From the IMG/VR virus record IMGVR_UViG_2534681939_000019: DNA of 10,152 nt. One strand, 5' to 3'. Of this stretch, positions 472 to 10,152 are shown one piece after another. Position 1 is the first letter of the stretch; every line of letters begins with the position of its first letter. The position numbers and the translations under genes are program-made. The DNA is from a virus. Taxonomy: Duplodnaviria; Heunggongvirae; Uroviricota; Caudoviricetes. The notes beneath the pieces were generated by a model. That model saw nothing but the letters and a program-made list of their open reading frames with translations. It was not told the origin of the DNA and did no database searches.

Positions 472-506
472 ATTGTTGTCAGCTTCCGGATAACGGGAGA
501 CGGGGT

Positions 507-721
507 ATGTACCAGATGGAAAAAATCACAACGGGTGTGTCATACACCACGTCAGCGTGGGGACGGGATACTGGTTACTGCAGCTGCTGGACAAAGTCTC
601 TCCGTCCCAGTGGGTGGCGATAGGTGTGCTGGGGAGTCTGCTGTTTGGGCTGCTGACATATCTGACGAACCTGTATTTCAAGATTAAAGAAGACCGGCGT
701 AAGGCGGCGCGGGGAGAGTAA
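507..721 (+). pseudogene. S: Class II pinholin S (phage 21 S-like), reading frame disrupted by an apparent 1-bp deletion near 557
   Basis: From ATG 507 the frame gives [17 protein letters not shown] then runs to TAG 621-623; the -1 frame from 557 gives [54 protein letters not shown] ending TAA 719-721. Joined, this matches the phage 21 pinholin as recalled from memory. Dual-start MYQM motif. Confidence 0.8.
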
Positions 722-722
722 A

Positions 723-1070
723 GTGATGAAGAAAAAATACGAACTGGTTGTTAAAGGGATAAATAATTACCCGGATAAGATTACTGTTACTGTGGCACTG
801 GAAATTGGTGGGTATCCGTCACTGTTGTTGCCAGATGTGGCGATTAGTCTTGACCGTACTGAAGGTGCCACGCTGGAGTTTTACGAAGCTGAGGCGAAAA
901 AGCAGGCGAAGCAGTTTTTCATGGATGTTGCTGCCGGGTTATGTGAAGGGGATGGTCCGTTACCGGAAAAGCGTCCCGTAATTTTAGAGGCGCAGGATGT
1001 GTTGATAACCTACAGAGGAAAACTACCGGGAATAATTACGGGTTCTCTGAAGACTCCACCGCTGGCCTGA
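723..1070 (+). CDS. Hypothetical protein between holin and endolysin; possibly like the small DUF1327/YdfR-type proteins found at this position in lambdoid prophages
   Basis: 115-aa ORF with no hydrophobic segments; GTG 723 / ATG 726 immediately after the holin stop, with GGGGAGAG about 7 nt upstream of ATG 726. Family assignment is from memory and unverified. Confidence 0.55.
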   Translation: MMKKKYELVVKGINNYPDKITVTVALEIGGYPSLLLPDVAISLDRTEGATLEFYEAEAKKQAKQFFMDVAAGLCEGDGPLPEKRPVILEAQDVLITYRGKLPGIITGSLKTPPLA

Positions 1071-1120
1071 AGACTTAACATATCCAGGGATTTGAAATCG
1101 ATAAACCCTGATAAATATCC

Positions 1121-1655
1121 ATGAACGCAAAAATCAGATACGGCCTGTCGGCTGCCGTTCTGGCGCTGATTGCCGCAGGTGCGTCTGCGCCTGAAATCCT
1201 CGACCAGTTTCTGGATGAAAAGGAAGGTAACCACACCACAGCATACCGTGATGGTGCGGGTATCTGGACCATCTGCCGTGGAGCCACCCGGGTGGATGGT
1301 AAGCCTGTTATTCCTGGCATGAAGCTGTCGAAGGAAAAATGCGACCGGGTTAACGCCATTGAGCGTGATAAGGCGCTGGCATGGGTGGAGAAAAACATCA
1401 GAGTGCCACTGACCGAACCCCAGAAAGCGGGGATTGCGTCATTCTGTCCGTACAACATTGGCCCCGGTAAGTGTTTCCCGTCGACGTTTTACAGACGGAT
1501 TAATGCAGGAGATCGAAAAGGTGCCTGCGAAGCTATTACGCTGGTGGATTAAGGACGGTGGCAGGGACTGCCGTATTCGCTCAAATAACTGTTACGGTCA
1601 GGTATCCCGTCGTGACCAGGAGAGCGCGCTGGCGTGCTGGGGAATCGACAGATAA
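1121..1655 (+). pseudogene. R: SAR endolysin R (phage 21 R-like lysozyme), reading frame disrupted near 1538
   Basis: N-terminal signal-anchor-release segment (GLSAAVLALIAAGASA) then lysozyme core through GDRKGACEAI, after which this frame stops at 1550-1552 (TLVD*). The +1 frame continues RWWIKDGGRDCRIRSNNCYGQVSRRDQESALACWGIDR to TAA 1653-1655, matching the expected endolysin C-terminus. Confidence 0.8.
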
Positions 1656-1794
1656 GCAGAATATTTTGCTGAAAAATGAGGTTTGCTTACATGGATGGAT
1701 AACACGAAATCCTGCAAATTGGCAAAATGTAAGTGAATAAAGTCAAAACAGTTGTTTAACACTCAGGCACCGTAATGATGCCTTTGTCATTTCT

Positions 1795-1816
1795 GCGCAT
1801 CTCACGCGCATCTCAC
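1795..1816. repeat. Perfect tandem direct repeat, 2 x 11 bp (GCGCATCTCAC), in the intergenic region upstream of the antirepressor-like gene
   Basis: GCGCATCTCAC at 1795-1805 is repeated exactly at 1806-1816; lies about 110 bp upstream of ATG 1926. Confidence 0.6.
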
Positions 1817-1925
1817 AACACAGAACCTTTCAGGATGACCCTTGAGGATACCGGTTTGGCTGTCGGTGCCTTTCTGTGGGCTGGATTCCTGTGAGACAAG
1901 GTTCATCACTAAAAGGAAATAACCG

Positions 1926-2498
1926 ATGAATATGATGGCCGTGCCGTTTCACGGCAACTCTCTTTATGTAGTTAACCATAATGGCGAACCATACGTTCCC
2001 ATGAAACCTGTCGTTGCGGGGATGGGGCTGGCCTGGCAATCACAGTTGGCTAAGTTAAGACAGCGTTTTGCGTCAACTATAACGGAAATCGTTATGGTTG
2101 CTGAGGATGGGAAACAACGCAATATGGTGTCCATGCCACTTCGAAAACTTGCCGGCTGGCTACAAACCATTAATCCCAACAAAGTAAAACCCGAAATCCG
2201 CGATAAGGTCATCCGGTATCAGGAAGAGTGCGACGATGTTCTTTACGAGTACTGGACGAAGGGTTTTGTCGTTAATCCCCGTAAAATGAGCGTGATGGAA
2301 GAACTCAACCAGGCTTGTGCTGACATGAAACGGGATAAAAACATTGCCAGTGTGTTTGCTACCGGGCTGAATGAGTGGAAACAGGTTAAAGCCGCGCAAT
2401 GTATCAAAAAATCCGTAACGCTGGTAAATGAAGCGAATATGCTGATTGATTTTGTCCTGGCTGATACAGGCAAAGGGAAAATAACAAAGGCGGATTGA
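1926..2498 (+). CDS. Phage antirepressor-like protein (P22 Ant N-terminal-domain type)
   Basis: 190-aa ORF with SD AAGGAAAT 5 nt before the ATG; N-terminus VPFHGNSLYVVNHNGEPYVPMKPVVAGMGLAWQSQ ... PLRKLAGWLQTINPNKVKPEIRDKVIRYQEECDDVLYEYWTKG fits the antirepressor N-terminal domain pattern as recalled. Confidence 0.7.
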   Translation: MNMMAVPFHGNSLYVVNHNGEPYVPMKPVVAGMGLAWQSQLAKLRQRFASTITEIVMVAEDGKQRNMVSMPLRKLAGWLQTINPNKVKPEIRDKVIRYQEECDDVLYEYWTKGFVVNPRKMSVMEELNQACADMKRDKNIASVFATGLNEWKQVKAAQCIKKSVTLVNEANMLIDFVLADTGKGKITKAD

Positions 2499-2620
2499 TG
2501 GGGTGGCTAATGATATCAGATAAACTCATAACGCTGGTGAAGAGCCTCTGTGTACTTGTCGGCATTTCATTTTTAGTCATGCTGGTTGCCATTTTCTTTC
2601 CACCGCCTGGCGAGTCCTGA
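2498..2620 (+). CDS. Candidate small single-pass membrane protein (40 aa), translationally coupled to the antirepressor-like gene
   Basis: ATG 2498 overlaps the upstream TGA (ATGA); alternative ATG at 2510 in the same frame. Product MGWLMISDKLITLVKSLCVLVGISFLVMLVAIFFPPPGES has one hydrophobic helix; too short for the ORF track. Confidence 0.3.
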   Translation: MGWLMISDKLITLVKSLCVLVGISFLVMLVAIFFPPPGES

Positions 2621-2650
2621 CGTTATCGGGACTGGTGGGGTGAAAGAGAG

Positions 2651-3122
2651 ATGAACCGTGTTCTGTGTGTGGTGATTATTGTCATGGCGGTTGGACTGTG
2701 GTGCGCTGTGGCCTGGGCAACAAACCATTACCGTGACTACGCGCTCACCTACAAAGCGCAGCGCGATAAAAAAGCCAGAGAGACTGGAACAGGCGAATGC
2801 CACCATTACTGACATGCAGGTGCGCCAGCGTGATGTTGCTGCGCTCGATGCAAAATACTCGAGGGAATTAGCCGATGCGAGAGCTGAAAATGAAACTCTG
2901 CGTGCTGATGTTGCCGCTGGTCGTAAGCGCCTGCGGATCAACGCCACCTGCCCCGGTACCGTGCGTGAAGCCACCGGCACCTCCGGCGTGGGCAATGATG
3001 CCGCCGTCGAACTCTCTCCGGTTGCTGGACGAAACGTTCTCGGTATCAGAGACGGAATCATCAGCGACCAGGCAGCATTGAGAATGCTTCAGGAATATAT
3101 CCGCACTCAGTGTATTAACTAG
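2651..3122 (+). pseudogene. Rz: Rz i-spanin, reading frame disrupted by an apparent 1-bp insertion near 2783
   Basis: ATG 2651 gives MNRVLCVVIIVMAVGLWCAVAWATNHYRDYALTYKAQRDKKARE (transmembrane N-terminus, lambda Rz-like) then stops at 2810-2812. The +1 frame continues LEQANATITDMQVRQRDVAALDAKYSRELADARAENETLRADVAAGRKRL...EYIRTQCIN to TAG 3120-3122, matching lambda Rz. Confidence 0.8.
2875..3081 (+). CDS. Rz1: Rz1 o-spanin lipoprotein, embedded in the +1 frame of Rz
   Basis: MRELKMKLCVLMLPLVVSACGSTPPAPVPCVKPPAPPAWAMMPP: lipobox LVVSAC and proline-rich segment as in lambda Rz1; lies wholly inside Rz in the +1 frame. Confidence 0.7.
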   Translation: MRELKMKLCVLMLPLVVSACGSTPPAPVPCVKPPAPPAWAMMPPSNSLRLLDETFSVSETESSATRQH

Positions 3123-3146
3123 TATTTTTGTTATTCGGAGAATGCA

Positions 3147-3370
3147 TGAAGAAATTATTGGTAACCGTAAAGCCTTTTCAGGGAACAATTCCGTTCCGTA
3201 TTTTGCAGCGTGGTCGTGTTCTTGTTGAAGGTTCGTTCAGTGGTAAATGTACGCAATTACACTCCAGGACCTTTCAGGTGAATGCCACGAATGAAGAGCT
3301 AACCGTTGAGTGTACGATGAATGCCGCTAAATGCCGCATGGTATCCGCTGCATTACAGCCAGTGTGTTGA
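3147..3370 (+). CDS. Hypothetical small protein (74 aa)
   Basis: ATG 3147 (MKKLLVTVKPFQG...) has GGAGAA 6 nt upstream; it is the internal start of track ORF 3128..3370. No motif recognised and no signal peptide, so it is not Bor-like. Confidence 0.4.
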
Positions 3371-3726
3371 GCGACCTTATTATTCATGCGCGGTATTGTC
3401 GCCGTATTCCTGCATTAACAGAGACCGCAGCCCGACCGGGAGAATCCTCTGCGCGAGTGTGCGGGGATAATCAAAAACGATACACACCGGGGTTTACCGC
3501 GTTAACGGAGCGCGGCGTTGTCCCCTCATGGTCGCTGGTCCGGTGCGATGGTGGAAGAAGCCGGATGTTTATCACTATTAATTGATAACACAGAAATGGA
3601 TTCATTGGTTTTCAGCACGTTTTTGTATTCGTATTATTGAACATCTGTTTATTTTACTTTTAACATATTGATAATAAAAAGAGCTGTAAATCATTAGATG
3701 AGTCGATTTTGTCCGGGGAAGTTCAA

Positions 3727-3879
3727 ATGGATTTTATGCTGACGGTTTCTGGTGTGGTTATCCTGTCCATTGCTTATACTGCAGATAAATATGGCTGCCA
3801 TTTGTTATCACGTATTGGCGCTTATTGCTCGTTGATGCTGATTTCCTCGTCGCTTTTTTTGAGTAAGTTATATTAATTA
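3727..3879 (+). CDS. Candidate small hydrophobic protein (49 aa) inside an AT-rich island
   Basis: ATG 3727 with GGGGAAG 5 nt upstream; product MDFMLTVSGVVILSIAYTADKYGCHLLSRIGAYCSLMLISSSLFLSKLY has two hydrophobic stretches. Short and AT-rich, so it could be spurious. Confidence 0.25.
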
Positions 3880-4001
3880 TAACAAATAATTTTCTGTGTT
3901 TTTTCAGGCTATCCCGTCAGACGGGAAGCCTGTACTGCCGGGGGACGAATGGAAAACTGATGTGTCCGGTAAACTGTGTGTTCTTGTGAACACCATGTTA
4001 C

Positions 4002-4184
4002 TTAATTAATGTAATTCATACCCGAACGCTCTGTTGACAGCCTTCTTCTGCAGGCTTCAATAACCCACGCTGAAAAGTTACCGGAACCTTTATGTTCAAG
4101 GGCGATATTGATCTGTTCAATCATGTGATTGGGGAAACGGATATTGCGGATTGTGGTTCTGCGGGTCCGGTTTTTCGATGACAT
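4002..4184 (-). CDS. Small ribbon-helix-helix-like DNA-binding protein (YlcI/YnfO DUF3950-like)
   Basis: 60-aa minus-strand ORF MSSKNRTRRTTIRNIRFPNHMIEQINIALEHKGSGNFSAWVIEACRRRL...: basic N-terminus, a beta-strand-like RNIRF, then two helices. SD AGAGGAAAG lies just upstream of the ATG on the minus strand. Resemblance to K-12 prophage YlcI/YnfO is from memory. Confidence 0.6.
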   Translation of the reverse strand: MSSKNRTRRTTIRNIRFPNHMIEQINIALEHKGSGNFSAWVIEACRRRLSTERSGMNYIN

Positions 4185-4225
4185 TTTCTTTCCTCTGGTG
4201 ACAAGCTATATGGCGAGGATTTTAC

Positions 4226-4768
4226 ATGGCTGTGCTTCGTACGTTACCGGGCAGAATCAAAACTCTGAACACCCGGCGGATAAATGTCCTGAGGGGGGAA
4301 CAGCGTCGTGTCAGTGGCAGTGCCCGGGTTTCCCTCAAACGTCGTATCTGGCGGAGGGATGCCGGACACTGTTGTCTCTGTAGACGCGTGGTTGACCTTC
4401 GTGACAGTGAACTCGATCACCGCATTGCACTTCAGTTCGGTGGTGGTAATGAGGAGACGAACCTCTGGACCCTCTGTACTGAATGCCATCGCCAGAAGTC
4501 AGCGAGTGAAGCGGCGAGTGGTATGCCTGATCCGACGTTGCCTGAGCTTCCTGATGGCACGCTCAGGGCCGACGGAATCACTCGGCCTGTGACCACGACC
4601 CGGGGGGGGATCATCCGGCGAAAAAAAACGATCGCCCTGGACACCGCGCCCCCTCTCACGCAGAGAAAAAATTCCCGTTTCAGGGCAGTTAACATGTTAA
4701 CTGGCTGCCCGGGCATTTTTGCGGTTTTTATCTTTATTATTCAGTTTGTTGTGCGGAAAAAATGTTAA
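4226..4768 (+). CDS. HNH endonuclease (terminase-associated, HK97 gp74-like) with an unusually long C-terminal tail
   Basis: HNH motif HCCLCRRVVDLRDSELDHRIALQFGGGNEETNLWTLCTECHRQK; SD GAGGA 7 nt before ATG 4226; directly upstream of terS. The last 60-80 codons run through G8 and A8 homopolymers and into the palindrome array, so the true stop is uncertain. Confidence 0.75.
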   Translation: MAVLRTLPGRIKTLNTRRINVLRGEQRRVSGSARVSLKRRIWRRDAGHCCLCRRVVDLRDSELDHRIALQFGGGNEETNLWTLCTECHRQKSASEAASGMPDPTLPELPDGTLRADGITRPVTTTRGGIIRRKKTIALDTAPPLTQRKNSRFRAVNMLTGCPGIFAVFIFIIQFVVRKKC

Positions 4769-4814
4769 CAGGCTTTTTCAGCAAATGTTAACCAGGCAGC
4801 AGTTAACATTTGCG
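4683..4814. repeat. Array of GTTAAC-containing inverted repeats between HNH and terS; candidate cos / terminase recognition region
   Basis: Perfect 18-bp palindrome CAGTTAACATGTTAACTG at 4686-4703; AATGTTAACA at 4761-4770; 12-bp inverted arms GCAAATGTTAAC (4781-4792) and GTTAACATTTGC (4802-4813) around a 9-bp spacer. Five copies of ATGTTAAC-like half-sites lie within about 130 bp. Confidence 0.55.
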
Positions 4815-4883
4815 GCATGAGACGCCGGGAAAAATGGGCTGAACCATACCCGGCTGAGTGCGTTCTGGACCCGGGAGGAGGCT

Positions 4884-5447
4884 GTGCTGACAACGCAAAA
4901 ACGAAAATTTGCGCTGGCGCTCATGTCCGGGAAAAACAAAACAGCGTCAGCCATTGCCGCCGGTTATTCGGCGAAGACCGCCAGGGTTAAAGGCTCGCAG
5001 CTGGCAAAAGATCCTGAGGTGCTTGCGTTTATAGCCCGTAAACAATGCGAGACGGTGGAGGTGGATGAGGTTCCTGTTTACCGGCAGAAAAAATCAGAGC
5101 AGGAGGATAAACCCCGTCGCCGTGAGGCGGCTGCAATACCACAGCCGGACGAAAACAATCTGGAGATGCCACCGTCCGCGGTGATGTCTCCTGGTATTGA
5201 ATATATGGAGGATGGTCTTCCCGATCCGGTGAAAGCCATGGGGCGGATCCTGGTGGAAAACCTCTGCATTGATCCGAAACTGGCACTGGATGCGGCCTGG
5301 CGTCTGGCGCAGTTCACGCACCATAAAAAAGGGGATACCGGGAAAAAATCGGCAAAAGGTGATGCCGCGAAAAAAGCGGCTAACCGTTTTGCGGTGCCAC
5401 CGCCACCCCGACTGGTGGTGAATAACGATAATGAGGGCAACGGATGA
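4884..5447 (+). CDS. terS: Terminase small subunit (Terminase_2-like, N-terminal HTH)
   Basis: MLTTQKRKFALALMSGKNKTASAIAAGYSAKTARVKGSQLAKDPEVLAFI fits the TerS HTH pattern (AGYS.KTA...GS.L). GTG 4884 follows GGGAGGAGG (4873-4881); an in-frame ATG at 4833 is an alternative start without a good SD. Stop overlaps the terL start (ATGA at 5444-5447). Confidence 0.8.
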   Translation: MLTTQKRKFALALMSGKNKTASAIAAGYSAKTARVKGSQLAKDPEVLAFIARKQCETVEVDEVPVYRQKKSEQEDKPRRREAAAIPQPDENNLEMPPSAVMSPGIEYMEDGLPDPVKAMGRILVENLCIDPKLALDAAWRLAQFTHHKKGDTGKKSAKGDAAKKAANRFAVPPPPRLVVNNDNEGNG

Positions 5448-7105
5448 TACCTGTATGGAGCACAGCCTGCCCGGACTGGGCAGAGCGCCTGAAAAAGGGG
5501 CTGTCGATTATTCCGGATCCGATTTATCCGGACGAGGCCGCACATGCCCTGGCGATTTTTAAACAACTGCGGATTGTGGATGCACCTGGTAGCCCTACGT
5601 TCGGGGAGTCCTGTGCACCGTGGGTGTTTGACCTGGTGGCGGCCCTGTTTGGCTCCTACGATGCGCAGACCGGTGTACGCCATATCAAGGAAGTTTTTAT
5701 CCTTATCCCCAAGAAAAACAGCAAGTCCACGCTGGCCGCGGGGATCATGATGACTGCACTGTTACTGAACTGGCGGCAGGCGGCGGGTTACACGATTCTG
5801 GCCCCGACTGTGGAGGTGGCGGCCAACGCCTTCAACCCTGCCCGGGATATGGTACGACGGGACGATGATCTGGATGACCTCTGCCAGGTACAGACCCATA
5901 TCCGGACCATCACCCACCGGGTGACGGACACCACCCTGAAGGTGGTGGCAGCCGATCCGAATACGGTGTCCGGTATCAAGTCCGTGGGTACGCTGATTGA
6001 TGAGTTGTGGCTGTTTGGCAAGCAGTGCAAGGCGGAGGACATGTTACGTGAAGCCATAGGCGGCCTTGCCTCCCGCCCGGAAGGGTTTGTGGTGTATACG
6101 ACCACCCAGTCGAATGAACCGCCCGCCGGGGTGTTCAGACAGAAACTGCAGTACGCCCGGGATGTGCGCGACGGCAAAATTCATGATCCGCACTTTCTGC
6201 CGGTGATATTTGAACACCCTCCTGAAATGGTGGAAAGCGGGGCTAACCTGCTGATGGAAAACCTCGCCATGGTCAATCCGAATCTCGGCTATTCAGTGGA
6301 TGAGGCCTTTCTGTACCGGGAGTACCGTAAAGCCCGGGAAGCCGGTGAAGAGACATTCCGGGGGTTCATGTCAAAACACGCCAATGTGGAAATTGGTCTT
6401 GCCCTGCGCTCTGACCGCTGGGCGGGGGCTGATTTCTGGGAAGAGCAGGGCCGTTGTATCAGCCTGGACGATATCCTGCGTCGTGCTGATGTGGTGACGG
6501 TGGGGATTGACGGCGGAGGGCTGGATGATCTGCTGGGGATGTATGTGATTGGGCGTGACCGGGAGACCCGCGAATGGCTGGGCTGGGGCCATGCCTGGGC
6601 GCATGGAACCGCGGTGGTCAGACGGAAGAGTGAGGCATCCCGTTTTCAGGATTTTGTGGCCTGTGGAGACATGACGATTGTCCGTCGGGTCGGGGATGAC
6701 ACGGCGGAAGTGGCGGAATATGTGCGTCGCATTCATGAGGCTGAGTTACTGGACCATATCGGTATTGACCCGTCAGGTGTGGGGCAGATTCTGGATTCAC
6801 TGGCGGAAGCCGGGATCCCCGACGGAATTGTTGTGGGGATAAGCCAGGGCTGGAAGCTGGGCGGGGCCATTAAAACCACCGAGCGCAAACTGGCTGAGGG
6901 AGTACTGGTGCATGGTGGTCAGCCACTGATGGCCTGGTGCGTTGGCAATGCCCGGGTGGAGCCTAAAGGTAACGCTATCCTTATTACCAAACAGGCCAGC
7001 GGACGGGGGAAAATTGACCCGCTGATGGCGCTCTTCAATGCGGTCTCCCTGATGTCCCTTAACCCGGAACCGAAAAAGAAAGAATATGCGGTTTTTTTCA
7101 TATAA
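5444..7105 (+). CDS. terL: Terminase large subunit (ATPase plus nuclease)
   Basis: 553-aa ORF; P-loop-like LIPKKNSKST near the N-terminus, acidic patches in the ATPase region, C-terminal nuclease region with VTVGIDGGG and DPSG. Translationally coupled to terS. Confidence 0.9.
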   Translation: MIPVWSTACPDWAERLKKGLSIIPDPIYPDEAAHALAIFKQLRIVDAPGSPTFGESCAPWVFDLVAALFGSYDAQTGVRHIKEVFILIPKKNSKSTLAAGIMMTALLLNWRQAAGYTILAPTVEVAANAFNPARDMVRRDDDLDDLCQVQTHIRTITHRVTDTTLKVVAADPNTVSGIKSVGTLIDELWLFGKQCKAEDMLREAIGGLASRPEGFVVYTTTQSNEPPAGVFRQKLQYARDVRDGKIHDPHFLPVIFEHPPEMVESGANLLMENLAMVNPNLGYSVDEAFLYREYRKAREAGEETFRGFMSKHANVEIGLALRSDRWAGADFWEEQGRCISLDDILRRADVVTVGIDGGGLDDLLGMYVIGRDRETREWLGWGHAWAHGTAVVRRKSEASRFQDFVACGDMTIVRRVGDDTAEVAEYVRRIHEAELLDHIGIDPSGVGQILDSLAEAGIPDGIVVGISQGWKLGGAIKTTERKLAEGVLVHGGQPLMAWCVGNARVEPKGNAILITKQASGRGKIDPLMALFNAVSLMSLNPEPKKKEYAVFFI

Positions 7106-7130
7106 CCCTGTTCACACTGTAACCATCACG

Positions 7131-7155
7131 AACCGCTCCGGCGGTTTTTTATTTT
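7131..7155 (+). terminator. Small hairpin plus U-tract between terL and the protease gene (possible attenuator)
   Basis: AACCGC (7131-7136), loop TCCG, GCGGTT (7141-7146), then TTTTATTTT; overlaps the protease SD AGGAGG (7157-7162). Confidence 0.35.
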
Positions 7156-7167
7156 CAGGAGGCTGAT

Positions 7168-7746
7168 GTGACTCTTAAACGGGCCTGTTCCCTGCTGACG
7201 GTGAAATCCTTCAGCGAGGATGAACGGGTGATCACCGGGATTGCGTCAACGCCTTCTCCGGATCGGGATGGTGACATCCTGGAGCCGGAGGGGGCGGAGT
7301 TTGGCTGTGCGATCCCGTTTCTCTGGCAGCATGACTATTCCCGTCCGGTGGGCCAGTGTACGGTACGCCGGGTCAGTGAAGGTCTGGAAATCACGGCAAC
7401 ACTGGTGAAGCCCGTACCGGATATGCCGTCGCAACTGGCTGCCCGGCTGGATGAGGCCTGGGCGGCCATTAAGACCGGGCTGGTCAGGGGGCTGTCCGTG
7501 GGCTTCCGTCCCCATGAATACACCTCTCTGGACGGAGGCGGACTGCATTTTCTGCGCTGGGAACTGATGGAGGTGTCTGCCGTCACCGTGCCCGCGAATG
7601 CGGAATGCACCATCCGGACCATTAAATCTTACGACCGCCCGTTTTCTGCCGCGTCCGGCAACCGGAAACCGGTGGTGAAAATCGCATCTTCTGCCGGCGC
7701 TGCGGCACAGTCAACAACCGCTTTTCATAAGGAAAAGACAGAATGA
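7168..7746 (+). CDS. HK97-family prohead protease (peptidase S78/U35)
   Basis: GTG 7168 with AGGAGG 5 nt upstream; VITGIASTPSPDRDGDILEPEG ... FLWQHD ... GLSVGFRPHEY ... MEVSAVTVPANAECTI is the typical motif order of the HK97 protease family. Confidence 0.85.
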   Translation: MTLKRACSLLTVKSFSEDERVITGIASTPSPDRDGDILEPEGAEFGCAIPFLWQHDYSRPVGQCTVRRVSEGLEITATLVKPVPDMPSQLAARLDEAWAAIKTGLVRGLSVGFRPHEYTSLDGGGLHFLRWELMEVSAVTVPANAECTIRTIKSYDRPFSAASGNRKPVVKIASSAGAAAQSTTAFHKEKTE

Positions 7747-7812
7747 ATATTGGCGAACAGATAAAAGTTTTGAAACAAGCGTGCGGCGCTGGCAGCCTCC
7801 CTTGAGGAGGTC

Positions 7813-9102
7813 ATGACCAAAGCCGCAGAGGAAGGGCGCACGCTGGATGTGGAGGAGGAAGAGCATTACGACAACACCGCAGCGGAAATCCGTCAGGTGG
7901 ATGCGCACCTGAAGCGCCTGCGTGAACTGGAAGCCGGTAAGGCCGCCACGGCGCAGCCGGTGAAACAGGCCGGTAACGGGAATGTGGCCGCGGTGGCTTC
8001 TGCGCCGGTGATCCGTGTGGAGCAGAAACTGGATAAGGGGATTGGCTTCGCCCGCTTTGCCAAATCGCTGGCTGCGGCTAAAGGCGTCCGATCTGAAGCC
8101 CTGGAAGTGGCCCGTCGTCAGTATCCGGATGACAGTCGTCTGCATCATGTCCTGAAATCGGCAGTGGGCGCAGGGACCACCACGGATCCACAGTGGGCAG
8201 GCAGCCTGTCTGAATATCAGGAATACGCACAGGACTTTATTGATTACCTGCGTCCGCAGACCATTATCGGGCGATTTGGTCAGGGCGGGATCCCTGCACT
8301 TCGTCAGGTGCCATTCAATATCCGCGTGCACGCCCAGGTGTCCGGCGGTGCTGCCGGCTGGGTGGGGGAGGGTAAGGCAAAACCCCTGACGAAGTTTGAT
8401 TTTGAATCCATCACCTTCAGTCATGCGAAGGTGTCGGCCATTGCGGTACTGACGGAAGAACTGATCCGCTTTTCCAGTCCGGCAGCTGATGCACTGGTCC
8501 GTAATGCGCTGGCAGAAGCGGTGGTGGCGCGTCTGGACACAGACTTTGTGGACCCGAAAAAAGCTGCAGTGGCAGATGTCTCCCCGGCGTCCATCACCCA
8601 TGATGTGAAGGGCACGGCATCAACCGGTAACCCGGATGCGGATGCCGAGGCCGCGTTTGGCCAGTTTGTGACGGCAAATCTGCAGCCCACCGGTGCTGTC
8701 TGGCTGATGTCCAGCACCAATGCCCTGGCACTGTCCATGCGTAAAAATGCGCTGGGTCAGAAGGAATATCCGGACATGACCCTGCTGGGCGGGATCTTTC
8801 AGGGGCTTCCGGTGATTGTCTCCCAGTATGTGGGTGACCAGCTGGTGCTGGTGAATGCCCCGGATATTTATCTGGCGGATGACGGCGGCGTGGCAGTGGA
8901 TATGTCCCGCGAAGCATCACTGGAAATGCAGTCTGAGCCGACCGGCGACAGTACCACGCCGTCCCCGGTGGAGCTGGTTTCCATGTTCCAGACAGGCAGC
9001 GTGGCCATCCGTGCGGAGCGCTGGATCAACTGGCGTCGTCGCCGTACTGCGGCGGTGGCGGTGATCACCGGAGTGAACTACGGCAGTGCGTCCGGCGGCT
9101 GA
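7813..9102 (+). CDS. HK97-fold major capsid protein; the true N-terminus probably starts at ATG 7743 in another frame (apparent frameshift)
   Basis: 429-aa ORF with a coiled-coil-like N-terminal delta region (EIRQVDAHLKRLRELEAG) and Gly/Ala-rich capsid body, placed directly after the protease. ATG 7743 overlaps the protease stop (ATGA) and encodes MNIGEQIKVLKQ before a frame change near 7773-7776. Confidence 0.85.
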   Translation: MTKAAEEGRTLDVEEEEHYDNTAAEIRQVDAHLKRLRELEAGKAATAQPVKQAGNGNVAAVASAPVIRVEQKLDKGIGFARFAKSLAAAKGVRSEALEVARRQYPDDSRLHHVLKSAVGAGTTTDPQWAGSLSEYQEYAQDFIDYLRPQTIIGRFGQGGIPALRQVPFNIRVHAQVSGGAAGWVGEGKAKPLTKFDFESITFSHAKVSAIAVLTEELIRFSSPAADALVRNALAEAVVARLDTDFVDPKKAAVADVSPASITHDVKGTASTGNPDADAEAAFGQFVTANLQPTGAVWLMSSTNALALSMRKNALGQKEYPDMTLLGGIFQGLPVIVSQYVGDQLVLVNAPDIYLADDGGVAVDMSREASLEMQSEPTGDSTTPSPVELVSMFQTGSVAIRAERWINWRRRRTAAVAVITGVNYGSASGG

Positions 9103-9116
9103 GTCTGATAAGGAGG

Positions 9117-9138
9117 ACGGGAGGCGTGCGCCTCCCGT
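9117..9138 (+). other. GC-rich 22-bp palindrome / stem-loop immediately downstream of the major capsid gene
   Basis: ACGGGAGGCG (9117-9126) and CGCCTCCCGT (9129-9138) are perfect reverse complements around a 2-nt centre; no U-tract follows. Confidence 0.45.
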
Positions 9139-9146
9139 AACAGGTT

Positions 9147-9368
9147 ATGGCAAAGATCCGATATCTGCAGGGCACGCATGATGCCCGGCCCGGGGATATC
9201 CGGGATGTCGCACAGCCGTGTGCGGAGGTGCTGGTTCGCCTGAGGAAGGCGGAGTACATCACAGCGCGACGTCCGGCGGGTCAGAAAAAGAAACATGATG
9301 CGGAGCATAGCGAATGTGGAACTTTTTGCGACGAACCCGAAAAAACCAGAAATCAGGACGTGATGTAA
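9147..9368 (+). CDS. Hypothetical small protein (73 aa) between capsid and portal genes
   Basis: Track ORF MAKIRYLQGTHDARPGDIRDVAQPCAEVLVRLRKAEYI...; weak SD; overlaps the predicted portal start by about 55 nt, so it may be shorter or not real. Confidence 0.35.
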   Translation: MAKIRYLQGTHDARPGDIRDVAQPCAEVLVRLRKAEYITARRPAGQKKKHDAEHSECGTFCDEPEKTRNQDVM

Positions 9369-10152
9369 AAGAGGCGGGCTGGACCAGCCTGTTTCAGGCG
9401 GTGGCTGAGCCCTTTGCCGGCGCCTGGCAGCAGGGTGTGAAAGCCGATCCGGAAAGTGTCCTCTCCTTTCATGCGGTGTTTGCATGCATTTCGCTGATAT
9501 CCCAGGATATCGCCAAAATGCGGCTGCGTCTTATGCAGACGGATGCGCATGGGATACGCAGGGAAACGCGCCGGGGGGATATTGCCCGCCTCTGTCGTCG
9601 TCCCAACGCCCAGCAGAACCGCATCCAGTTTTTTGAACTGTGGCTGAACGCCAAACTGCGTCATGGCAATACGGTGGTGCTGAAAATCCGTAATGCCCGG
9701 GGGCAGATCAAAGAACTGCGTATTCTGGACTGGAGCCGGGTTGAACCTCTGGTGGCGGATGACGGCGAGGTGTTCTACCGCATCACACCGGACCGGAACT
9801 GCGGGATCACGGAGGCGGTGACGGTGCCTGCCAGGGAAGTGATCCACGACCGGTTTAACTGTTTTTTTCATCCGCTTATAGGACTGCCGCCGGTGTATGC
9901 CGCCGGGCTGGCGGCCACGCAGGGGCATCATATTCAGGAAAATTCGACGTCTTTTTTCAGAAATGGCGGCAGGCCGTCCGGGGTGATTGAGATCCCCGGC
10001 AGTATTACGGAAGAAAATGCGAAAAAACTGAAGAGCAACTGGGACAGCGGGTATACAGGCGAAAATGCGGGGAAAACGGCCATTCTGAGCAACGGGGCAA
10101 AATACAACCCCACGACGTTTTCACCTGTGGATGCGCAGACGGTGGAACAACT
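9314..10152 (+). CDS. Portal protein (HK97-family), 5' part; continues beyond the window end
   Basis: Frame is open from ATG 9314 to the window end with no stop: MWNFLRRTRKNQKSGRDVKEAGWTSLFQ ... SFHAVFACISLISQDIAKMRLRL ... FFRNGGRPSGVIEIPGSITEENAKKLKSNWDSGYTGENAGKTAILSNGAKYNPTTFSPVDAQTVEQ. The FRNGxRPSG and ENAGK blocks are characteristic of portal proteins. Confidence 0.85.
   Translation, partial: MWNFLRRTRKNQKSGRDVKEAGWTSLFQAVAEPFAGAWQQGVKADPESVLSFHAVFACISLISQDIAKMRLRLMQTDAHGIRRETRRGDIARLCRRPNAQQNRIQFFELWLNAKLRHGNTVVLKIRNARGQIKELRILDWSRVEPLVADDGEVFYRITPDRNCGITEAVTVPAREVIHDRFNCFFHPLIGLPPVYAAGLAATQGHHIQENSTSFFRNGGRPSGVIEIPGSITEENAKKLKSNWDSGYTGENAGKTAILSNGAKYNPTTFSPVDAQTVEQ

What the first reader, a model, noticed from the sequence alone, without database searches (positions are those of the whole stretch)
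4002..4225. Minus-strand RHH (YlcI-like) regulator divergent from HNH with only 41 bp between start codons
It is the only convincing minus-strand gene in the window. A ribbon-helix-helix fold suggests a repressor or antitoxin-type DNA binder, yet no partner gene lies downstream of it. Its promoter must lie inside the first codons of the HNH gene, so its expression could interfere with late transcription into the packaging module.
Basis: partly seen in the sequence, partly recalled or inferred. Interest (0 to 1): 0.4.

Follow-up and report, generated by a model that had tools for sequence, protein, structure and literature searches.

The report
YlcI-family small regulator gene in prophage
This is a real, strongly conserved 60-codon prophage gene of the already-annotated YlcI/YnfO (DUF3950) family, probably a small DNA-binding protein, that always sits backwards just before the DNA-packaging genes; what it does is still unknown.

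Summary
A 60-aa ORF lies at 4002-4184 (-). Its ATG is 41 bp from the ATG of the HNH gene (4226), and both genes have GAGGA ribosome sites.

It is a clear DUF3950 / YlcI-YnfO family member, 97-98% identical to RefSeq proteins of E. coli O157 lambdoid prophages. Against the lambda, DLP12 and Qin alleles, silent sites are saturated but the protein barely changes (dN/dS about 0.02). So it is a real gene.

A ribbon-helix-helix fold is likely but not proven. The monomer model gives two helices in the right places. Nearly all of the best structural matches are RHH proteins, but none is individually significant.

In 78 of 78 viral loci with enough flank, the divergent upstream neighbour is the first packaging gene. 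It is HNH with an invariant 41-42 bp gap, or Nu1-type TerS across cos. The downstream neighbours vary. No partner gene exists here.

Phage lambda itself carries an unannotated orthologue 199 bp from its right end.

Phage satellites fuse this domain to a copy of the helper TerS DNA-binding domain.

No promoter or operator could be defined.

Verdict: a known family, with the function still open.

The parts
4002..4184 (-). ylcI/ynfO-family CDS (DUF3950). It is 60 aa in the window and 61 aa in close relatives; the last residues are altered by an extra base near 4009.
4185..4225 (.). 41-bp divergent spacer. It carries the GAGGA ribosome site of ylcI (4195->4191, minus strand) and that of HNH (4215-4219, plus strand). 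The spacer length is invariant in 44 related loci, and two sequence haplotypes exist.
4219..4224 (-). Best candidate -10 element (TAAAAT) for ylcI. It lies within an invariant block GGATTTTACATGGCTG. The block also covers the end of the HNH ribosome site and the HNH start codon, so its conservation is ambiguous.
   Evidence: read; conservation; not reported by the consensus scan
4226..4592 (+). HNH endonuclease gene, divergent neighbour. The extent given is the true one, judged by comparison with relatives (121 aa). The window ORF runs on to 4768 because an extra base at 4583 shifts the frame past the true stop; a second extra base lies at 4597.
4685..4813 (.). Array of five AAATGTTAAC motifs in both orientations, between HNH and terS. 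It is probably the TerS recognition (cosB-like) region. This is context, not shown to bind YlcI.
4884..5447 (+). Terminase small subunit (Terminase_2). Its first ~52 residues (the DNA-binding domain) are 64% identical to the C-terminal domain of satellite DUF3950-TerS fusion proteins.
3905..4001 (-). Structured RNA region downstream of the ylcI stop, with hairpins at 3969-4001 and 3905-3932. Neither is followed by a U tract, so this is not a canonical intrinsic terminator.

Best explanation
The ORF encodes a small Arc/CopG-like ribbon-helix-helix protein of the YlcI/YnfO (DUF3950) family. It most likely acts as a dimeric sequence-specific DNA binder, that is, a transcriptional regulator.

**Shown**
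- The gene is real and under strong purifying selection.
- It belongs to DUF3950.
- In lambdoid phages it is always the last gene before the packaging module and always reads against the late operon.

**Inferred**
- It forms a dimer through an N-terminal beta-strand (T-I-R-N-I-R-F-P, in register with Arc's P-Q-F-N-L-R-W-P) and two helices, and reads DNA with the strand.
- It is made from its own weak promoter in the prophage state. This is the same design as lambda bor: an antisense orientation insulates it from the Q-dependent late transcript. After induction, late transcription would override it.
- It is an accessory, non-essential function.

Its DNA target is unknown.
For: - Family membership.
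- Purifying selection: dN/dS 0.015-0.03 against the lambda/DLP12/Qin alleles, with synonymous sites saturated.
- Fold: two helices at 19-32 and 37-56. The top PDB and viral structural neighbours are almost all RHH repressors or antitoxins. hhalign puts the family profile on Arc in the expected strand/helix-A register (P=0.0028). There is a weak PHROG hit to the HicB RHH domain (E=0.056).
- Orientation and synteny: 78 of 78 IMG/VR loci with flank have HNH (44) or Nu1-type TerS (34) divergent upstream. 59 of 60 listed phage records have the gene on the strand opposite to the record's orientation. K-12 ylcI and ynfO are arranged the same way.
- Modular domain: it occurs fused to other domains, as expected for a dimerising DNA-binding module. 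Examples are the TerS DNA-binding domain in satellites and DUF1398 (P0224).
- Regulator-like position: in satellites and other integrase-bearing elements it is the lone gene on the opposite strand between the integrase and replication modules. One satellite copy has two perfect TGGTACGTACCA palindromes 33 bp apart flanking a TATAAT.
- Expression of homologues without induction: the ybcW-ylcI convergent overlap was seen in at least 50% of MG1655 RNA-seq samples (PMC12288877). A DUF3950 gene was quantified in O157:H7 RNA-seq (PMC7709258).
Against: - No sequence-level match to any Pfam RHH family for 19 family members, and none to any PDB chain.
- Structural matches are individually non-significant (E>0.2). 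The model is only moderately confident (pLDDT 67.7), and the strand is not formed in the monomer.
- No consensus promoter, terminator or repeated operator-like motif lies near the gene in this window.
- No experiment on any family member was found in the literature searched.
- An invariant Cys and Trp in helix B (NFSAWVxEAC) are unusual for plain RHH repressors and are unexplained.
Confidence: 0.55

Rival explanations
1. Packaging accessory factor. In this reading YlcI binds at or near cos, or binds the TerS DNA-binding domain, and helps or tunes terminase recognition of the phage chromosome end. Satellites would have copied the domain to redirect packaging.
For: - The gene is invariably adjacent to the start of the packaging module, across two unrelated TerS types, while its downstream neighbours vary.
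- The lambda orthologue starts 199 bp from the right cohesive end.
- Six diverged satellite protein clusters fuse DUF3950 to a copy of the helper-type TerS DNA-binding domain. That domain is 64% identical to window TerS residues 1-52 and matches SF6 TerS DBD 2CMP at E=1.6e-4.
- Each fusion gene is directly preceded by its own 10-12-nt repeat array, as terS is in the window.
- The architecture parallels the PICI Rpp protein, which is a TerS-DBD mimic plus a dimerisation domain (PMC6739421).
Against: - The gene is antisense to the late operon, which is the wrong design for a protein needed at packaging time.
- Lambda and the window phage have non-homologous TerS and cos sequences, yet their YlcI proteins are 80% identical.
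- The neighbouring right-arm genes bor, p78 and p79 are non-essential in lambda (PMC10695390), although the YlcI ORF itself was not tested there.
- Lambda cos function has been defined without this ORF (established knowledge).
- Family members also occur in non-phage loci: next to cytochrome bd, TonB-receptor/CopC and fimbrial/RM genes.
- The fusion may simply use the domain for dimerisation.
Confidence: 0.15
2. Orphan antitoxin, or the regulator half of a two-gene module. In this reading YlcI neutralises or represses a partner (such as DUF1398) encoded elsewhere among the many prophages of the same genome.
For: - The RHH-like fold is typical of ParD, HicB, CopA and TacA antitoxins, which are among the nearest structural matches.
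- In Qin, ynfO is followed 57 nt later by ydfO (DUF1398) on the same strand and is listed with it as an operon (PMC12218254).
- 17 of 80 viral loci show the same pairing.
- A read-through YnfO-YdfO fusion exists, with 761 member sequences.
- O157 genomes carry up to 12 copies of this 1.6-kb region.
Against: - There is no same-strand ORF longer than 35 aa downstream in the window.
- 61 of the 78 loci with downstream flank lack a same-strand neighbour.
- DUF1398 is not a known toxin.
- Neither YlcI nor YdfO matches PADLOC.
- PHROGs files DUF1398 under 'head protein'.
Confidence: 0.1
3. Metal- or redox-responsive small regulator. In this reading the invariant Cys (with the neighbouring Glu/Asp) in helix B would form a sensing site across the dimer.
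For: - C45 is invariant, and W40, A44 and an acidic residue at 43 are nearly invariant across the family.
- Chromosomal members sit directly after a TonB-dependent receptor and before CopC, or after cytochrome bd genes, both with DUF2946 upstream.
- A Fur-box-like palindrome lies about 145 bp upstream of the lambda orthologue. It matches 16 of 19 positions of a consensus recalled from memory, and 0 of 200 shuffles reach that.
Against: - This is entirely circumstantial.
- No metal-binding family matches.
- The window copy has neither a Fur-like box nor metal genes nearby.
- Only two chromosomal contexts were looked at.
Confidence: 0.07
4. Decaying or non-functional remnant that is merely carried along with the HNH/cos module.
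For: - The window itself has many frame-breaking indels in late genes.
- No function is known for the gene.
Against: - dN/dS is about 0.02 over the first 50 codons between alleles with saturated silent sites.
- The ORF is intact in all loci examined.
- Strong ribosome sites are conserved in both spacer haplotypes.
Confidence: 0.03

Closest known systems
E. coli K-12 YlcI (DLP12 prophage, b4589) and YnfO (Qin prophage, b4533); Pfam PF13132 DUF3950; NCBIfam NF041551
   Same: - Same family: about 78-80% identity over the first 50-59 residues.
- Same minus-strand position directly before the packaging genes, divergent from the small terminase.
- Function unknown in all of them.
   Different: - Here the divergent neighbour is an HNH endonuclease only 41 bp away. 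In K-12 it is Nu1-type TerS about 389 bp away, across cos.
- The C-terminal tail after the conserved core is only about 10 residues, against 14-27 in YlcI and YnfO.
- No DUF1398 gene lies nearby.
Unannotated ORF of phage lambda, complement(48109..48303) of NC_001416
   Same: - It is an orthologue: 64 aa, identical in protein sequence to DLP12 YlcI and 79.7% identical to the window protein.
- It is the last gene before cos and reads inward from the right end.
   Different: - It is not annotated in the reference record.
- It lies next to cosQ/cosN, not next to an HNH gene.
P22 Arc and Mnt repressors (RHH family, Arc/MetJ/CopG)
   Same: - Size, predicted strand-helix-helix layout, and an N-x-R-[W/F]-P strand motif in the same register (manual alignment, with the Arc sequence recalled from memory).
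- Arc structures are among the nearest structural matches.
   Different: - No significant sequence similarity.
- No operator identified.
- The genomic place is different: the packaging end rather than the immI region.
- An invariant Cys/Trp motif in helix B.
Lambda bor (a lysogeny-expressed gene in the Rz-to-cos region)
   Same: - Same genome region and same antisense orientation relative to the late operon.
- Non-essential accessory status is inferred for both.
   Different: - Bor is an outer-membrane lipoprotein with a demonstrated phenotype and demonstrated expression in lysogens.
- YlcI is a predicted cytoplasmic DNA binder with neither shown.
PICI Rpp proteins (redirecting phage packaging; PMC6739421). 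Compared with the satellite DUF3950-TerS-DBD fusions, not with the window gene itself.
   Same: - Satellite-encoded.
- Contains a copy of the helper TerS DNA-binding domain plus a dimerising part.
- Accompanied by a satellite-specific repeat array that differs from the helper's.
   Different: - Rpp mimics the Nu1-type winged helix and dimerises through C-terminal helices.
- The fusions carry a Terminase_2-type helix bundle at the C-terminus and a DUF3950 domain at the N-terminus.
- No experiment exists on the fusions.

Membership tests
DUF3950 / YlcI-YnfO family (PF13132, NF041551) | HMM score above the curated cut-off | tested here: met
   Pfam 70.8 bits against a cut-off of 25. NCBIfam 35.1 bits against a cut-off of 30.
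DUF3950 / YlcI-YnfO family (PF13132, NF041551) | Conserved NFS motif within NFSAWVxEAC, and the upstream IRFP segment | tested here: met
   Window residues I15, R16, F17, P18 and N36-C45 are present. These columns are invariant or nearly so in alignments A2 and A3.
DUF3950 / YlcI-YnfO family (PF13132, NF041551) | In lambdoid phages, placement on the strand opposite to the late operon, directly before the packaging module | tested here: met
   78 of 78 IMG/VR loci with flank. K-12 DLP12 and Qin. Window.
Ribbon-helix-helix superfamily (Arc/MetJ/CopG) | Strand-helix-helix topology | tested here: inconclusive
   The AF2 monomer gives helices 19-32 and 37-56 in the right places, with pLDDT 67.7. 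The N-terminal strand is not formed, as expected without the partner chain.
Ribbon-helix-helix superfamily (Arc/MetJ/CopG) | Significant structural or profile similarity to known RHH proteins | tested here: inconclusive
   - The Foldseek top 50 are dominated by RHH proteins at rmsd 1.3-1.7 A, but E=0.8-8. The viral library gives the same pattern.
- hhalign against Arc: P=0.0028, probability 11%.
- No Pfam RHH family matches 19 members at E<=10.
Ribbon-helix-helix superfamily (Arc/MetJ/CopG) | Obligate dimer that binds DNA through the paired strands | not testable with these tools
   This needs a multimer prediction, biophysics, or EMSA.
Type II toxin-antitoxin antitoxin | Toxin gene adjacent, on the same strand, in one operon | tested here: not met
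   The downstream minus-strand ORFs are at most 35 aa and have no family. The next annotated gene is on the plus strand. No PADLOC match.
Lysogeny-expressed accessory gene ('moron', as lambda bor) | Own promoter and terminator, independent of the late operon | tested here: inconclusive
   The orientation fits. No consensus promoter or terminator was found. A candidate -10 TAAAAT lies at 4224->4219. Hairpins without a U tract lie downstream.
Lysogeny-expressed accessory gene ('moron', as lambda bor) | Expression from the repressed prophage | not testable with these tools
   Only indirect literature evidence exists for homologues (PMC12288877; PMC7709258).

The most novel reading that the evidence does not exclude
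YlcI is a conserved 'chromosome-end' gene of lambda-like phages, overlooked even in the lambda reference annotation. In this reading its product works with the cos/TerS recognition apparatus.

Helper-embedded satellites of these phages have taken the same domain and fused it to a copy of the helper TerS DNA-binding domain. The result would be an Rpp-like protein that steers packaging to a satellite-specific repeat array.

The phage gene sits at the DNA end that, in lambda, enters the cell first, and it reads inward. It could therefore also act at the very start of infection.
Probability: 0.15. Interest if true: 0.6.

Novelty: already known. Interest (0 to 1): 0.28.

Why it matters
The gene itself is routine. 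NCBI's pipeline already names it, and near-identical copies sit in about 1,600 of 5,426 complete E. coli genomes, often several per genome.

What makes it mildly interesting:
- The family has no known function.
- It is under very strong purifying selection.
- It is present but unannotated in phage lambda.
- It never leaves the packaging end of the genome.

Tried and rejected
- **Sequence search of PDB**, with the protein and with a family profile: nothing relevant.
- **Pfam scan of 19 family members at E<=10**: only DUF3950, no RHH family.
- **Rfam on the whole window**: nothing.
- **Consensus promoter/terminator scan of 3300-5000**: no site upstream of ylcI. The only minus-strand promoter-like site nearby lies in the GTTAAC array (4791->4762), about 580 nt upstream.
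- **Search for the satellite palindrome GGTACGTACC in the window**: no more matches than chance, and none near ylcI.
- **Repeat search of 3880-4420**: only short chance-level pairs.
- **DNA homology between the window cos region and the satellite cos-like region**: none outside the DUF3950 coding core.
- **tblastn hit in phage vB_KppS-Ant (37% identity)**: lies inside another gene's frame; discarded.
- **Genome-collection hits in Streptomyces, Cohnella, Pseudomonas and others**: short lambda-identical contigs, consistent with lambda control-DNA contamination, so not evidence of host range.
- **Literature searches** for ylcI, ynfO, DUF3950 and the locus tags: no functional study found. The lambda ribosome-profiling paper and the Casjens-Hendrix review are not held.
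- **PADLOC**: no defence-system match for YlcI or DUF1398.

Full report
**What is there**

The window is the late region of a lambdoid prophage of E. coli O157. It is 99.3% identical over 3400-5000 to NZ_CP076230 and 98.4% identical to phage PPyecE_EH1910. The gene order on the plus strand is holin, lysozyme, antirepressor-like gene, Rz, small ORFs, HNH endonuclease, small and large terminase, then protease-capsid.

The finding is the one gene on the other strand: an ORF at 4002-4184 (-), 60 aa, with its ATG at 4184. The HNH ATG is at 4226, so exactly 41 bp (4185-4225) separate the two start codons. Each gene has a GAGGA ribosome site 6 nt from its ATG. The coordinates in the finding are the CDS plus this spacer.

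**Is it a real gene?**

Yes.
- It matches Pfam DUF3950 (E=8e-20), NCBIfam YlcI_YnfO_N above its cut-off, and PHROG 949.
- It is 97-98% identical to RefSeq proteins named 'YlcI/YnfO family protein'.
- Compared with the lambda, DLP12 and Qin alleles, the first 50 codons differ at 24-26 of about 34 synonymous sites but at only 6-7 of about 116 non-synonymous sites. That gives dN/dS of 0.015-0.03 where it can be computed. This is strong purifying selection on the protein.
- After residue ~50 the family diverges freely, which agrees with NCBIfam modelling only an N-terminal domain.
- None of the eight longer minus-strand ORFs in the window has any family match. RefSeq annotates none of them.

**Quality caveat**

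The window differs from its closest relatives by 23-26 one-base indels (24-29 gapped positions).
- One near 4009 changes the last residues of the protein (...NYIIK in relatives, ...NYIN here).
- An extra base at 4583, with a second at 4597, removes the true HNH stop. The real HNH is 121 aa, ending at about 4592, not the 180-aa ORF to 4768.
- The lysozyme, Rz and protease-capsid ORFs are also split relative to the single CDSs annotated in L001, presumably by the same kind of indel.

**Fold**

- No solved structure matches by sequence, and no Pfam RHH family matches any of 19 diverse members.
- An AlphaFold2 monomer model (pLDDT 67.7) has an extended N-terminal segment followed by helices 19-32 and 37-56. 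This is the layout of a ribbon-helix-helix protein whose strand pairs only in the dimer.
- Foldseek against PDB returns almost only RHH proteins at the top: NikR, StnY, ParD2, Arc, HicB, MazE9, CopA, TacA, NikA. The rmsd is 1.3-1.7 A over 36-40 residues, but E-values are 0.8-8, as is usual for a 40-residue motif. The viral library gives the same picture.
- hhalign places the family profile on P22 Arc in the expected register (TIRNIRFP on PQFNLRWP; P=0.0028, probability 11%).
- A second, independent model of a satellite fusion protein again shows a two-helix N-domain separated by a disordered linker from a confident TerS-type helix bundle.

I take the RHH fold as likely, not proven.

**Conserved neighbourhood**

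- In 80 IMG/VR loci encoding relatives, every locus with upstream flank (78) has a packaging gene as the divergent upstream neighbour. It is HNH in 44, always with the same 41-42 bp gap. It is a Nu1-type small terminase in 34, at 380-540 bp, with cos in between.
- The downstream side varies. It is a DUF1398 gene on the same strand in 17 loci, and otherwise opposite-strand lysis or hypothetical genes.
- K-12 shows the same arrangement: ylcI divergent from nohD, and ynfO divergent from nohA and followed by ydfO.
- Phage lambda itself encodes a 64-aa orthologue at complement(48109..48303), identical in protein to DLP12 YlcI. It starts 199 bp from the right cohesive end and is absent from the NC_001416 annotation.

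So the gene is anchored to the packaging end of the genome across two unrelated terminase types.

**Family breadth**

The family is small: 104 clusters at 50% identity out of 1.84 billion representatives. Many of these, and most odd-host genome hits, are short contigs carrying lambda-like or lambda-identical sequence. I read them as lambda control-DNA contamination.

Genuine distant members occur in several settings:
- In satellites and other integrase-bearing elements, as the lone opposite-strand gene.
- In an island between fimbrial and restriction genes.
- In chromosomal loci after a TonB receptor and before CopC, or after cytochrome bd genes.

**Satellites**

A ~9-kb element inserted in the large-terminase gene of a window-type prophage (CP027459) matches the 'helper-embedded satellite' type described in bioRxiv 10.1101/2022.07.18.500453. 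Between its integrase/AlpA and Icd/primase modules, on the opposite strand, it carries three features in order:
- A stand-alone YlcI-like gene, whose TATAAT is flanked by two perfect TGGTACGTACCA palindromes 33 bp apart.
- An array of TGTTTAACAC motifs.
- A 120-aa protein made of a DUF3950 domain, a linker, and a copy of the TerS DNA-binding domain.

Six diverged clusters share this fusion architecture, and all end just after the TerS domain. That domain is 64% identical to the first ~52 residues of the window's TerS.

The window has its own array of five AAATGTTAAC motifs (4685-4813) just upstream of terS. A second satellite has yet another array upstream of its fusion gene. This parallels the PICI Rpp mechanism, a TerS-DBD mimic plus a dimeriser with a satellite-specific cosB (PMC6739421).

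It shows that DUF3950 is an autonomous module that has been combined with packaging-recognition parts. It does not show that the phage's own YlcI acts in packaging.

**Promoter and operator**

- No consensus sigma-70 promoter or intrinsic terminator flanks the gene.
- Across 35 distinct sequences, the spacer exists in two haplotypes. Both keep the two ribosome sites and an invariant GGATTTTACATGGCTG block.
- On the minus strand that block contains TAAAAT (4224->4219), the best -10 candidate. It also contains the HNH start, so its conservation is ambiguous.
- The matching -35 position (4247->4242) falls in HNH codons 6-8 and differs between haplotypes.
- No repeated or palindromic operator-like motif was found.
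- Downstream RNA is structured but lacks a U tract.

**Most likely mechanism**

YlcI is a small dimeric RHH DNA-binding regulator. It is expressed from its own weak promoter in the prophage state and placed antisense to the Q-dependent late operon, so that it is insulated from that operon and then overridden by it after induction. This is the same design as lambda bor.

Indirect support for expression without induction comes from K-12 RNA-seq (ybcW-ylcI overlap; PMC12288877) and from O157 RNA-seq (PMC7709258).

Rivals are a cos/TerS accessory role, an orphan antitoxin or partner of DUF1398, and a metal/redox-sensing regulator. All are circumstantial.

**Verdict**

The family is already known and annotated. 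The RHH interpretation is likely right. The promoter and interference claims remain untested, and the function is still open.

The extra observations (the lambda orthologue, the invariant synteny, the satellite fusions) give concrete experiments. They do not change the classification.

Noticed in passing
window 473-9996 (examples: near 4009, 4583, 4597; ORFs 1121-1552, 2651-3122, 7168-9102): The window has about 24 one-base indels relative to 97-99% identical prophages. The lysozyme, Rz and protease-capsid ORFs are split relative to the reference annotation, the HNH stop is removed, and the YlcI C-terminus is altered. This is either an error-prone assembly or a decaying prophage.
   Followed up: partly
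window 4685-4813: There are five copies of AAATGTTAAC in both orientations between HNH and terS. Five of the nine GTTAAC sites in the window cluster here. This is probably the TerS recognition (cosB-like) region of a cos site.
   Followed up: partly
L005 3610-3804 (= NC_001416 complement 48109..48303): Phage lambda encodes an intact 64-aa YlcI orthologue, identical in protein to DLP12 YlcI. It starts 199 bp from the right cohesive end and is not annotated in the reference record.
   Followed up: yes
L005 3948-3966 (= lambda 48447-48465): A Fur-box-like palindrome, GTAGATGATAATCATTATC, lies about 145 bp upstream of the lambda ylcI start. It matches 16 of 19 positions of the Fur consensus as recalled from memory, and 0 of 200 shuffles reach that. 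It is absent from the window version.
   Followed up: partly
L048 5440-6370; L054 13600-21600 (CP027459): A helper-embedded satellite sits inside terL of a window-type prophage. It carries, in order:
- A YlcI-like gene whose TATAAT is flanked by two TGGTACGTACCA palindromes 33 bp apart.
- A TGTTTAACAC repeat array.
- A 120-aa DUF3950-TerS-DBD fusion protein (P0212).

RefSeq annotates the fusion as two pseudogene fragments, although the ORF is intact and conserved in six diverged clusters.
   Followed up: partly
L053 4520-4646 and 4714-5103: A second satellite has a different repeat (GTGCACAAACAC, 3-5 copies) directly upstream of its own DUF3950-TerS-DBD fusion gene (P0200). This suggests that each fusion has a matching DNA site.
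   Followed up: no
P0224 (233 aa, 761 member sequences); L004 6757-7458: In many genomes ynfO and the downstream DUF1398 gene ydfO are joined into one reading frame. In K-12 they are separate, 57 nt apart.
   Followed up: no
L055 5001-5180; L144/L145 5001-5225: Distant chromosomal DUF3950 genes sit directly after cytochrome bd genes, or after a TonB-dependent receptor and before CopC, with DUF2946 upstream. Together with the invariant Cys in helix B, this hints at a metal or redox link.
   Followed up: no
L006-L046 (genome-contig hits in Streptomyces, Cohnella, Pseudomonas and others): Many non-enterobacterial 'genomes' contain contigs of about 3.5 kb or 48.5 kb with lambda-identical sequence. 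This is consistent with lambda control-DNA contamination, which also inflates the protein family with error-laden variants.
   Followed up: partly
window 3905-3932 and 3969-4001: Two stable hairpins form in the minus-strand RNA just after the ylcI stop (z=-3.2 against shuffles). No U tract follows them. They lie between ylcI and the convergent small plus-strand ORF (3727-3867).
   Followed up: partly
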